Part shown: positions 9,001 through 10,146 of the stretch, one piece after another
Layout: every line of letters begins with the position of its first letter
Position numbering within the stretch: position 1 is the stretch's first letter
Origin: a virus
Taxonomy: Duplodnaviria > Heunggongvirae > Uroviricota > Caudoviricetes
Direction: 5' to 3' (one strand)
IMG/VR virus record: IMGVR_UViG_2541047850_000007
Coordinates: 1-10,146 of that record
Length of the DNA: 10,146 nucleotides
Position numbers: made by a program

Positions 9001-10146
9001 TATGGACATGCACAGCCCGCAAGCCGTATCAGCTGGCATGGCGTACGATGGCAGAAACCAGGGCGATGACGGCGACATCGATCGCATACTGAAAACCATC
9101 TGAGACAAGGCCGGAGAAATCCGGCTTTTTTTTACGGGTCCTTTCCGGCATATGGACCCGTTACGGGGCGGCGACCTCGCGGTTTTTCGCTATTTATGAG
9201 CCTTTTCAGGGGGGTGGTGGTGGTTTTGTTGTTTGCTCTATCTTTATGAATAAAAAGGGAAAGATGCAAGCAATACACCAACCTGAAGCAGTAATTAAGT
9301 TGGTGTATTAATGAAATCGCACCTGATGAACAAAAAAAACATGGCTAAAAGCTGCCGTGTAAGTGCGACAGCGTTCGACAAGTGGGGAGTAACTCCCGTT
9401 GAGCGTAAAGGCCGTGAGGCGTTTTATGATGTTGCCAGCGTGATAGACAATAGGGTTAACAATGCAATTAGCCAGCTTACAAACGACAAAGGCGATATTG
9501 ACGATGATGAACTATTACGAGTCAGGATCAGATTACTGACAGCGCAGGCGGAGGCGCAGGAGCTTAAAAACGAGCGCGAACGAGGCGACGTTATTGATAC
9601 AGGGTTTTGCCTGTACGCGCTTTCAAAGCTGGCGAGCCAGATTTCTTCAATCATGGACAGCATCCCGCTTACTATGCAAAGGAGCTTTCCACACATTACC
9701 CCAGCCATGCTGGATGGGCTTAAAAGGGAAGTGGTTAAAGCCTGTAATGCCAGTGCCAGAGTTGCCGACAACCTCCCACAGATACTGGCTGATTACTTGA
9801 AAGAAACAACCGGAAACGTACCGGAAAAGTTGCAGCAGAATAAAGATAAGTAACGTAGTACGCTATGACTGAATCCGAAATACTGCGATTAATCCGCCGC
9901 GTCTCTGGAATCAGCCAGCAGGCTGACGAACAGACCACGCAGCCGGACAGCGTGACAGCCGAAAACTATGCGCGTGTGGTTGCTGAGGTGATGCGCCGTG
10001 ATGGTATCCAGCTTAATGATGTGGATATGCGCGACATACGGATCCGCGTTCTTGAAATGCTGGCCTACAATCGCCGCGTTGAGATGTATCGGGAGAAAGA
10101 AAAAATAACGTACCACTGGAAGAAGCCGGAGCGGTTACGGCGGTAA

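What the first reader, a model, noticed from the sequence alone, without database searches (positions are those of the whole stretch)
9865..10146. Unknown 93-aa ORF in the position of large terminase
It follows the Nu1-like gene, where lambda has gene A, but is only 93 aa and unrelated to the gpA N-terminus as recalled. It may be an adaptor linking the satellite TerS to helper TerL, an inhibitor of helper packaging, or a spurious ORF with no clear Shine-Dalgarno. The window ends exactly at its stop, so downstream context is unknown.
Basis: inference. Interest (0 to 1): 0.45.

Follow-up and report, generated by a model that had tools for sequence, protein, structure and literature searches.

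The report
Conserved last gene of satellite islands
The 93-codon reading frame is a real, selected gene that closes the late operon of a whole family of E. coli phage-satellite islands, but it is not a terminase substitute or terminase adaptor, and its function is still unknown.

Summary
The ORF at 9865-10146 is real. It matches PHROG family phrog_1561 over its full length (E 1e-55). It occurs 2009 times in 1567 of 5426 complete E. coli genomes, and also in Shigella, Citrobacter and Salmonella. It is under purifying selection (dN/dS 0.10-0.42; the antisense frame gives 1 or more).

The window is a phage-inducible chromosomal island (PICI) related to EcCICFT073, running from the int start codon to this ORF's stop. 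The ORF is the ortholog of EcCICFT073 c1505.

Its position "where lambda has gene A" is a coincidence. In relatives the same gene follows RppA plus a second cos site, a true large terminase (capsid-forming PICIs), a DUF1441 protein, or unrelated Citrobacter genes. It is always the last gene before 0.5-1.3 kb of non-coding DNA and attR.

It shows no similarity to the TerL N-terminus, RppA, Psu or any solved or predicted fold. In published work, cloned c1505 did not inhibit lambda, and an EcCICFT073 derivative lacking it still transfers.

The model is a small helical head, an Arg-rich exposed helix and a near-invariant C-terminal YxWKKPERLRR tail. Its stop codon opens an array of about 48-nt box-plus-hairpin repeats. 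My best guess, at low confidence, is a nucleic-acid-binding or docking regulator at the island's right end.

The parts
9865..10146 (+). 93-aa ORF (stop included). Member of phrog_1561 and ortholog of EcCICFT073 c1505. It is the last protein-coding gene of the island.
9854..9864 (+). 11-nt junction between the TerS stop and the ORF start. It has no Shine-Dalgarno sequence, so translation here probably depends on coupling to terS. In most TerS-type relatives a ~245-bp segment with an inverted second cosN occupies this position.
9871..9906 (+). Codons for predicted helix 1 (residues 3-14). It is followed by a low-confidence polar/acidic linker (residues 15-26).
   Evidence: AlphaFold2 model built with a 32-sequence alignment, mean pLDDT 72; single-sequence model.
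9943..10110 (+). Codons for helix 2 (residues 27-45) and the long helix 3 (52-82). This is the best-predicted part (pLDDT 82-89 for residues 31-70). The distal half of helix 3 is Arg/Gln/Glu-rich and varies between subfamilies.
10111..10143 (+). Codons for the C-terminal tail Y-H-W-K-K-P-E-R-L-R-R. Y83, W85, P88 and L91 are invariant and the other positions vary little, even in homologs only 40% identical. The Citrobacter copy keeps the tail through four synonymous and two non-synonymous codon changes, so the constraint is on the protein.
10144..10146 (+). The stop codon TAA. It is also the first three bases of the first ~48-nt 'TAAC box + hairpin' unit. The array (8 units in the 100%-identical genome) continues beyond the window end.
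9311..9853 (+). Context: Nu1-like small terminase subunit (180 aa). It is 46.6% identical to N15 gp1 and 33% identical to the TerS of the lambda-like CFT073 prophage.
9166..9177 (+). Context: cosN, GGGCGGCGACCT, identical to the cosN of the lambda-like prophage in the CFT073 locus L006 and, from memory, to phage lambda's. It is the island's only cos site.
9107..9136 (+). Context: strong intrinsic-terminator-like hairpin plus T-run between the scaffold-like gene and cos. The terS-ORF pair therefore lies downstream of a terminator.
   Evidence: L001 12108-12129 equals window 9107-9128.

Best explanation
Shown:
- The ORF is a genuine, selected gene. It is the conserved last cistron of the rightward (late/packaging) gene block of AlpA-type enterobacterial phage-inducible chromosomal islands, and the ortholog of EcCICFT073 c1505.
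- It sits after whatever packaging gene an island carries, and immediately before a non-coding stretch that leads to attR. In the excised circle that stretch leads to attP and then int on the same strand.
- It is not a piece of terminase, and its presence does not depend on the packaging strategy.

Inferred:
- The protein is a small helical head (helices 2 and 3 packed together) carrying an exposed Arg-rich helix and a near-invariant basic tail, YxWKKPERLRR. I take this to be a nucleic-acid-binding or docking end.
- The most likely target is the element physically welded to the gene: the same-strand array of ~48-nt 'TAAC box + hairpin' units that begins with its own stop codon.
- I propose the protein acts on this array, as the 3' part of the late transcript or as DNA next to attP. 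It would set the fate of late transcription at the island's right end, either termination/insulation or read-through across attP towards int in the excised, replicating circle.
- This would be an accessory function for the satellite life cycle. It is dispensable for helper-mediated transfer in laboratory assays.
For: Real gene:
- Full-length match to phrog_1561.
- 969 protein clusters.
- 2009 copies in 1567 of 5426 E. coli genomes.
- dN/dS 0.10-0.42 in the sense frame against 1 or more in the antisense frame.
- The tail is kept through synonymous codon changes in Citrobacter.

Independence from packaging type. The gene follows:
- a Nu1-type TerS;
- RppA plus cos2;
- TerL of capsid-forming PICIs, including EcCIEDL933;
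- a DUF1441 protein;
- unrelated 153- and 193-aa genes in Citrobacter.

Position: it was the last annotated CDS before attR in nine of the ten integrated islands sampled. The exceptions were L005, which has an accessory gene downstream, and L004 and L002, which each have a small minus-strand gene call downstream. The circular 10.79-kb record shows ORF, then 0.7 kb, then int, all on one strand.

Satellite-specific: no homolog in 50,697 phage records.

Protein shape and charge. The C-terminal 43 residues have pI 10.1 with 13 K+R.

Repeat array:
- Its first unit starts at the stop codon in 10 of the 11 islands; L005 has only a weak unit about 60 nt downstream.
- It lies on the + strand only and is absent from the rest of the window.
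- The hairpin is supported by covariation: 88% of cells paired against 75.5% in shuffles (0 of 500 reach it), 17 double-change cells against 6.2, and slid controls at 20-53%.

Accessory rather than essential: an EcCICFT073 derivative deleted for L006 8104-9001 (cos2, ORF and array) is the 'wild-type' marker strain in published transfer assays.
Against: - No experiment or computation here shows that the protein binds RNA or DNA. The link to the hairpin array rests on adjacency and strand only.
- The fold model is of moderate confidence (pLDDT 72) and matches nothing informative.
- The resemblance of the Arg-rich helix and Trp/Lys tail to arginine-rich RNA-binding peptides is compositional, recalled from memory, and not a test.
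- The near-invariant tail would fit a conserved host-protein target equally well.
- In Citrobacter locus L005 the unit after the stop is weak and an accessory gene follows, so the array is not strictly required next to the gene.
- If the module controlled int expression, some transfer or integration phenotype might have been expected in the deletion strain. None is reported, although no side-by-side comparison is available.
Confidence: 0.3

Rival explanations
1. Host-factor docking protein. The near-invariant C-terminal peptide binds a highly conserved host protein, for example a transcription elongation or termination factor such as Rho, Nus factors or RNA polymerase. P4 Psu, the last gene of the P4 late operon, does this with Rho. 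The effect would be to favour expression of the horizontally acquired island or of helper late genes.
For: - The tail is nearly unchanged in homologs that are otherwise 40% identical, across E. coli, Citrobacter and Salmonella. This fits a target that does not vary between these hosts.
- There is no covariation with the island's packaging module or integration site.
- It holds the same position as psu, the last gene of the late block next to the end of the element.
- It is dispensable in the laboratory. From memory, psu is also non-essential for P4.
Against: - No sequence similarity to Psu (hhalign probability 0.17%; HMM search of P4 six-frame translation).
- No fold match.
- No toxicity was reported when c1505 was expressed from pBAD18 (PMC6739421). 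A strong inhibitor of an essential host factor would be expected to be toxic.
- No partner has been identified.
Confidence: 0.2
2. Interference or defence factor aimed at helper or competitor phages other than lambda, analogous in role to SaPI Ppi or PICI-encoded immunity genes that sit after the packaging module.
For: - The region after the packaging operon of these islands is described as a variable, immunity-encoding region (bioRxiv 10.1101/2025.02.11.637232).
- The gene is satellite-specific.
- According to the text read here, only lambda was tested with the individual clones.
Against: - The gene itself is conserved, not variable, and is present in all island types sampled. Immunity cargo is usually patchy.
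- Cloned c1505 had no effect on lambda.
- No PADLOC match for this protein.
- 93 residues with no enzymatic or sensor domain.
Confidence: 0.15
3. Packaging accessory protein. It would be an adaptor between the satellite's DNA-recognition subunit and the helper or own large terminase or prohead, comparable to a lambda gpFI-like helper of terminase docking.
For: - It lies directly after the DNA-recognition or terminase gene in most islands, at 2-15 nt spacing, which suggests co-expression.
- It is expressed from the same strand as the packaging genes.
Against: - The upstream partners are non-homologous: Nu1-TerS, RppA, P27-TerS/TerL, DUF1441 and unknowns. The ORF subtypes do not follow them.
- No similarity to the TerL N-terminus.
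- No phage encodes a homolog.
- EcCICFT073 lacking the gene is still packaged in an RppA-dependent way.
Confidence: 0.07
4. Not a protein-coding gene. The conservation would reflect a DNA or RNA element, such as the start of the repeat array or an antisense gene (a minus-strand ORF overlapping it was annotated in CFT073).
For: - The last codons overlap a small hairpin and the first repeat unit.
- An antisense ORF of 75 codons is open in E. coli copies.
Against: - Substitutions concentrate at third codon positions of the sense frame.
- dN/dS is 0.10-0.42 in the sense frame against 1 or more in the antisense frame.
- The Citrobacter copy keeps most of the tail residues through codon changes.
- Length and frame are kept down to 40% protein identity.
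Confidence: 0.02

Closest known systems
EcCICFT073 c1505 (WP_000133413.1), the gene after rppA and cos2 in the prototype Gram-negative PICI
   Same: Ortholog: 93 aa, 84 of 93 residues identical, with the same tail. It is likewise the last gene before the non-coding right end, and the same repeat unit starts at its stop codon.
   Different: In CFT073 it is separated from the upstream gene (rppA, not a TerS) by ~280 bp that carry an inverted cos2, and it has a GGGGG ribosome-binding site. In the window it abuts a Nu1-type terS with no Shine-Dalgarno sequence. Its function is uncharacterised. The only published data are the lack of lambda interference and its dispensability for transfer.
Lambda gpA / large terminase (TerL)
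   Same: Only the map position: the next gene after a Nu1-type small subunit downstream of cos.
   Different: 93 aa against roughly 640 aa for gpA (recalled from memory; the TerL genes in the loci read here are 553-642 aa). No ATPase or nuclease domains (Pfam: none). No similarity to the TerS-binding N-terminus of a lambda-type TerL. In capsid-forming PICIs the gene follows a real TerL.
Rpp (redirecting phage packaging) proteins of E. coli PICIs
   Same: A small PICI-specific protein encoded in the same block.
   Different: No similarity (hhalign probability 0.15%). Rpp proteins are 144-153 aa, bind the PICI cosB through residues in their alpha-2 helix and bind phage TerS, block lambda and are required for transfer (PMC6739421). 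The ORF coexists with rppA, does not block lambda and is not required.
P4 Psu (polarity suppression protein)
   Same: The last gene of a satellite's late operon, next to the end of the element. It is helical, satellite-specific and non-essential.
   Different: 190 aa, acts as a capsid decoration protein and Rho inhibitor. No sequence or fold similarity was detected.
Arginine-rich transcription modulators lambda N and HK022 Nun with their boxB hairpins (recalled from memory; an analogy only)
   Same: A small basic protein with an Arg-rich helix and a functionally important Trp flanked by Lys. Short GC-stem hairpins with A/T-rich loops lie on the same strand nearby.
   Different: No homology (no Pfam hit). 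The Arg-rich part is C-terminal here, and the head is predicted to be folded. No boxA-like element was recognised. Cloned c1505 does not exclude lambda.

Membership tests
phrog_1561 (PHROG family of unknown function) | Full-length match to the family profile (93 positions) | tested here: met
   E 1.1e-55, residues 1-93 on profile positions 1-93. The Citrobacter homolog also matches (E 1.8e-18).
Large terminase subunit (TerL / lambda gpA) | Terminase ATPase and nuclease domains, size around 550-650 aa | tested here: not met
   93 aa. No Pfam, NCBIfam or PHROG terminase hit.
Large terminase subunit (TerL / lambda gpA) | N-terminal segment that binds the small subunit (similarity to the gpA-type N-terminus) | tested here: not met
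   hhalign of the family alignment against the first 150 residues of the lambda-type TerL of the CFT073 prophage: probability 0.07%.
Rpp (redirecting phage packaging) | Sequence similarity to RppA/B/C (N-terminal DNA-binding helix, about 144-153 aa) | tested here: not met
   hhalign against RppA: probability 0.15%. The ORF coexists with rppA in EcCICFT073.
Rpp (redirecting phage packaging) | Blocks lambda reproduction when expressed; required for island transfer | not testable with these tools
   For the ortholog c1505, published data say only c1503 blocked lambda, and the c1504-07::cat island still transfers (PMC6739421).
RgdR / DUF4222 (PICI-encoded regulator of LEE) | DUF4222 domain; 99 aa; gene located upstream of the primase (C1493 in CFT073) | tested here: not met
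   No DUF4222 hit for the ORF. The island's DUF4222 gene is window 3130-3429. RgdR is described in PMC3378721.
P4 Psu | Sequence or fold similarity to Psu | tested here: not met
Known anti-phage defence proteins (PADLOC) | Match to any PADLOC model | tested here: not met
   No hit for the window protein. One homolog gave a sub-threshold BrxA match, E 0.009.
AlpA-type enterobacterial PICI (the element as a whole) | int, alpA, P4-type primase with adjacent iteron ori, cos or terS packaging genes, no tail or lysis genes, about 10-15 kb between direct repeats | tested here: met
   Gene content. Ori iterons CTGTTCACC. cosN. A 17-bp attL/attR repeat about 11.3 kb apart between yljB and clpS. Synteny with EcCICFT073.

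The most novel reading that the evidence does not exclude
The gene and the hairpin-repeat array that starts at its stop codon form a previously undescribed, conserved 'right-end module' of enterobacterial PICIs. In this reading, a small protein with an arginine-rich helix and a near-invariant Trp/Lys/Arg tail recognises a dedicated array of box-plus-hairpin units, as RNA or single-stranded DNA. It would control transcription, or another nucleic-acid transaction, across attP in the excised satellite. This would be a satellite-specific counterpart of N/nut-type or Psu-type control.
Probability: 0.15. Interest if true: 0.6.

Novelty: new member of a known kind. Interest (0 to 1): 0.35.

Why it matters
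Nearly three in ten complete E. coli genomes carry this gene, often in several copies. It is kept by PICIs that use quite different packaging strategies, yet no function has been assigned to it. The two prototype studies either treated the region as a neutral site for a marker or did not count the gene as part of the packaging module.

Showing that it is not terminase-related prevents a wrong annotation such as "TerL remnant" or "adaptor". It also points to a better-defined question: what does a core, satellite-specific, late-expressed 11-kDa protein with a near-invariant basic tail do, and is it connected to the structured repeat array fused to its stop codon?

An answer could reveal a new layer of satellite gene control. 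This matters because these islands carry regulators of virulence (PerC, RgdR) and immunity genes.

Tried and rejected
1. TerL remnant or gpA N-terminus mimic. I noticed a faint RLxRxV resemblance to gpA's start from memory. hhalign against a lambda-type TerL N-terminus gave probability 0.07%, so I rejected it.

2. RgdR. The ISME paper says all E. coli PICIs encode RgdR, and the ORF has 'RRDG'. Reading PMC3378721 showed that RgdR is the 99-aa DUF4222 protein (C1493) upstream of the primase. Rejected.

3. 'Hypothetical gene 1792' of EcCIEDL933, whose mutation severely reduced transfer. I mapped the numbering through EDL933_1785, a 9-kDa protein with a 406-nt upstream gap, and through the RefSeq tag order. 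This places 1792 at the 60-aa gene between HNH and terS, and places the ORF at 1795. This is an inference, not a certainty. The published figure was not available.

4. Tai tail-assembly-inhibition systems. They lie downstream of pri, not here.

6. Sequence route.
- PDB HMM search: nothing.
- Pfam, NCBIfam and PADLOC: nothing.
- Phage tblastn with the whole protein and with the tail peptide: nothing.
- Exhaustive search of 1.84 billion representative proteins: only 38 clusters, mostly fragments of close relatives.

7. Pseudogene remnants. tblastn of the protein against the downstream 1.3 kb found none. Only the post-stop junction sequences recur there.

8. Known RNA families in the island and its right end: none.

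9. A possible paralog among the early 73-75-aa genes, which share an xDYAxFVTEv motif: hhalign probability 5-9%, not significant.

10. Citrobacter 153-aa upstream gene as RppC: no similarity to RppA.

Full report
**1. The observation**

The window holds an ATG..TAA ORF of 93 codons at 9865-10146 on the + strand. It starts 11 nt after the stop of a 180-aa gene. That gene matches Pfam Phage_Nu1 (E 9e-23) and the PHROG small-terminase family phrog_57. A cosN identical to the one in the lambda-like CFT073 prophage (GGGCGGCGACCT) lies at 9166-9177, upstream of this TerS. The 11-nt junction has no Shine-Dalgarno-like sequence.

**2. What the window is**

The last 1147 bases are 100% identical to two E. 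coli chromosomes. In NZ_AP045810.1 (locus L001) the element lies between yljB/cspD and clpS. A 17-bp direct repeat (AATGGTGTAGTTAATTT) sits just upstream of int and again about 11.3 kb to the right.

Gene content, in order:
- integrase
- AlpA-like HTH protein
- Icd-like protein
- DUF4222 protein
- P4-type primase, with CTGTTCACC iterons right after it
- SSB
- PerC
- lambda E-like capsid protein
- D-like decoration protein
- a 137-aa protein resembling the C-terminal (scaffold) part of the head protease
- cos
- the Nu1-like TerS
- the ORF

This is the organisation of the Gram-negative phage-inducible chromosomal islands (PICIs) typified by EcCICFT073 (PMC6092414). The CFT073 locus (L006) is syntenic gene for gene. 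The window runs from the int start codon to the ORF's stop codon. About 1.15 kb of island DNA with no annotated gene follows before attR.

**3. Is the ORF a gene?**

Yes.
- It matches phrog_1561 end to end (E 1.1e-55).
- It has 969 homologous clusters at 90% identity.
- RefSeq annotates it as a CDS.
- A DNA search finds 2009 copies in 1567 of 5426 complete E. coli genomes, up to six per genome. Copies down to 77% identity keep full length.
- Among five E. coli/Shigella copies, substitutions concentrate at third codon positions. Pairwise dN/dS is 0.10-0.42. For the overlapping antisense ORF it is 1.06-2.34, or undefined.

The family is narrow. An exhaustive HMMER scan of 1.84 billion representative proteins returns only 38 clusters, most of them fragments or frameshifted forms. 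Named hosts are Escherichia, Shigella, Citrobacter and Salmonella. No phage record contains a homolog.

**4. The 'position of gene A' is a coincidence**

The upstream neighbour of the same gene differs between islands:

| Island | Upstream neighbour |
|---|---|
| EcCICFT073 | RppA (144 aa), then ~280 bp with an inverted second cosN |
| Most TerS-type relatives of this window | Nu1-like TerS, then a ~245-bp segment with inverted cos2 (95% matches come as two pieces spanning 1391 nt instead of 1147) |
| Capsid-forming PICIs, at four integration sites, including EcCIEDL933 | A real 553-aa large terminase, 5-13 nt away |
| Another island type | A DUF1441 protein, 2 nt away |
| Citrobacter | 153- or 193-aa proteins with no detectable relatives |

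The direct TerS-ORF abutment in this window occurs in only three records and results from loss of the cos2 segment. That loss also removed the GGGGG ribosome-binding site seen in relatives.

The ORF's sequence subtypes do not track packaging type or integration site. In nine of the ten integrated islands examined it was the last annotated gene, followed by 0.5-1.3 kb of non-coding DNA and the island end. The exceptions were L005, which has an accessory gene downstream, and L004 and L002, which each have a small minus-strand gene call downstream. A 10.79-kb circular record (NZ_CP148328.1) is an excised island. In it the ORF is followed by about 0.7 kb and then int on the same strand.

**5. Comparison with known proteins**

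There is no Pfam, NCBIfam or PADLOC match. Profile comparisons gave the following probabilities:
- lambda-type TerL N-terminus: 0.07%
- RppA: 0.15%
- P4 Psu: 0.17%

An HMM search of the six-frame translations of P4 and a lambda-like prophage found only the orthologs themselves. The PDB sequence search found nothing.

AlphaFold2 with a 32-sequence alignment gives a moderate model (pLDDT 72):
- helix 3-14
- a low-confidence polar linker
- helix 27-45
- a long helix 52-82
- a C-terminal tail

The protein has pI 9.5. The last 43 residues carry 13 Lys/Arg. The distal half of helix 3 is Arg/Gln/Glu-rich and variable.

The terminal Y-x-W-K-K-P-E-R-L-R-R is nearly invariant even at 40% overall identity. 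In Citrobacter it is kept as WKKPDRLRQ through four synonymous and two non-synonymous codon changes, so the constraint acts on the protein.

**6. What published experiments say**

Mapping the primers from the supplement of Fillol-Salom et al. 2019 (PMC6739421) onto CFT073 gives two results.
- Their 'c1505' clone (pJP2220) spans L006 8317-8690. That is exactly this ORF's ortholog at 8374-8655.
- Their marker construct 'c1504-07::cat' replaces L006 8104-9001. This removes cos2, the ORF and the repeats after it.

The paper states that, of the individually cloned genes, only c1503 (rppA) reduced lambda plaquing. The rppA mutants and their wild-type comparator were built on the c1504-07::cat island, which lambda and phi80 transfer.

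So the ortholog neither blocks lambda nor is needed for induction, packaging, transfer or establishment in those assays. No side-by-side titre against an ORF-positive island is available.

In the capsid-forming EcCIEDL933, every gene of the 'packaging module' was mutated, and a 'hypothetical gene 1792' had a strong phenotype. From the locus-tag order and an independent anchor (EDL933_1785), I infer that 1792 is the 60-aa gene between HNH and terS and that this ORF is 1795. If so, it was not tested. That inference should be checked against the published figure.

RgdR, said to be present in all E. coli PICIs, is the DUF4222 protein, not this ORF.

**7. The DNA attached to the gene**

The ORF's TAA is the first triplet of a ~48-nt unit. 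Each unit has a conserved box (TAAC-yn-GyTGAT-wTTyyCGrAAA) followed by a hairpin. The inner stem of the hairpin differs from unit to unit but stays self-complementary. Many units end in GGCGCGG, followed by the next TAAC.

- There are eight units after the ORF in L001, seven in EcCIEDL933 and one to four elsewhere. All are on the + strand, and the first starts at the stop codon in 10 of the 11 islands; L005 has only a weak unit about 60 nt downstream.
- The motif is absent from the rest of the window.
- The immediate post-stop sequences of different island variants all occur stacked in L001.
- On an alignment of 14 units, RNAalifold predicts a two-tier hairpin. Of the cells, 88% pair, against 75.5% in shuffles (0 of 500 reach this). 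There are 17 double-change cells against 6.2, and slid controls give 20-53%.
- No Rfam family matches.

I could not determine what this array does.

**8. Most likely mechanism**

Shown: this is a core, satellite-specific, late-strand gene. Its presence is independent of how the island is packaged. It is welded to a structured repeat array next to attP/attR.

Inferred: the protein's working end is the Arg-rich helix plus the near-invariant Trp/Lys/Arg tail. The simplest target is the adjacent array, as the 3' part of the late transcript or as DNA. The protein would then set termination or read-through at the right end, and in the excised circle towards attP and int. I give this about 0.3.

Rivals:
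- docking onto a conserved host protein, as Psu does with Rho: 0.2
- interference with untested phages: 0.15
- a packaging accessory role: 0.07
- not a gene: 0.02

The remainder is unassigned.

**9. Verdict**

The specific interpretations (adaptor, packaging inhibitor, spurious ORF) are not supported. This is another copy of a known but uncharacterised PICI gene, in an island variant that carries a Nu1-type TerS instead of Rpp. Interest is moderate. The gene is very common and core to a well-studied satellite family, yet has no assigned function. The repeat array fused to its stop codon is an unexplained feature worth an experiment.

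Noticed in passing
Begins at window 10144 and continues beyond the window: L001 13145-13600; also L007 16280-16710 and L006 8653-8850: A tandem, same-strand array of ~48-nt units starts at the ORF's stop codon. Each unit has a conserved TAAC..GTTGAT..TTTCGGAAA box and a hairpin whose stem varies with compensatory changes. It was seen in all 11 islands sampled (one weak, displaced unit in L005), with 1-8 units each. It matches no Rfam family.
   Followed up: partly
Window 9854-9864, compared with L002 6854-7109 and L006 8095-8373: Most relatives carry a ~245-280-bp segment with a second, inverted cosN (the cos2 of EcCICFT073) between terS or rppA and the ORF. This window and two other genomes have lost it. 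The loss fuses the ORF to terS and removes its ribosome-binding site.
   Followed up: yes
Window 5255-5490: About eleven copies of CTGTTCACC / GGTGAACAG lie in both orientations right after the primase gene. By my recollection the octamer TGTTCACC is the same as the 'type I' ori repeat annotated in phage P4. The island therefore appears to have a P4-alpha-type origin.
   Followed up: partly
Window 8690-9103: The 137-aa ORF after the decoration gene matches phrog_1999. It also matches, more weakly (E 7e-10), the C-terminal end of head-maturation-protease family phrog_53. This suggests a Nu3-like scaffold protein. One RefSeq record calls its frameshifted copy a 'head-tail connector'.
   Followed up: partly
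Window 9107-9136: A strong terminator-like hairpin plus T-run lies between the scaffold-like gene and cos. Transcription of terS and the ORF would therefore need read-through or a separate promoter. The simple consensus scan found no promoter upstream of terS.
   Followed up: no
Window 9889-10116, minus strand: A 75-codon antisense ORF overlaps the gene. A minus-strand ORF in this region was annotated and cloned as c1506 in CFT073. Its dN/dS is 1 or more, and in the Citrobacter copies all three antisense frames contain stops. It is probably not a gene.
   Followed up: yes
L013 (NZ_CP148328.1, 10,790 bp, circular): A record deposited as a non-mobilisable E. coli plasmid is a complete PICI, from int to this ORF. 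It is presumably an excised, circular copy caught by the assembly.
   Followed up: partly
L001 2860-3015 and 13890-14300 (outside the window, on both sides of the att core): Clusters of TGTTCG(T/C)-type and GGTGTAGTTAAT repeats flank the 17-bp att repeat. GTTAAC-rich inverted repeats are also present. They could be integrase arm sites or a P4 crr-like region.
   Followed up: no
Window 3130-3429 and 6074-6466: The island carries homologs of two regulators reported to act on the LEE pathogenicity island: the DUF4222 protein (RgdR family) and PerC.
   Followed up: partly
Window between about 1858 and 5243, compared with L001: The coordinate offset between the window and the otherwise near-identical genome L001 changes by 33 nt between the AlpA gene and the end of the primase gene. 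A small indel therefore distinguishes them. I did not locate it.
   Followed up: no
L004 524-748, L005 1394-1618, L006 1484-1702: A 73-75-aa early gene of these islands shares a short helix motif (xDYAxFVTEv) with residues 30-45 of the ORF. The hhalign probability is only 5-9%, so this may be chance.
   Followed up: partly
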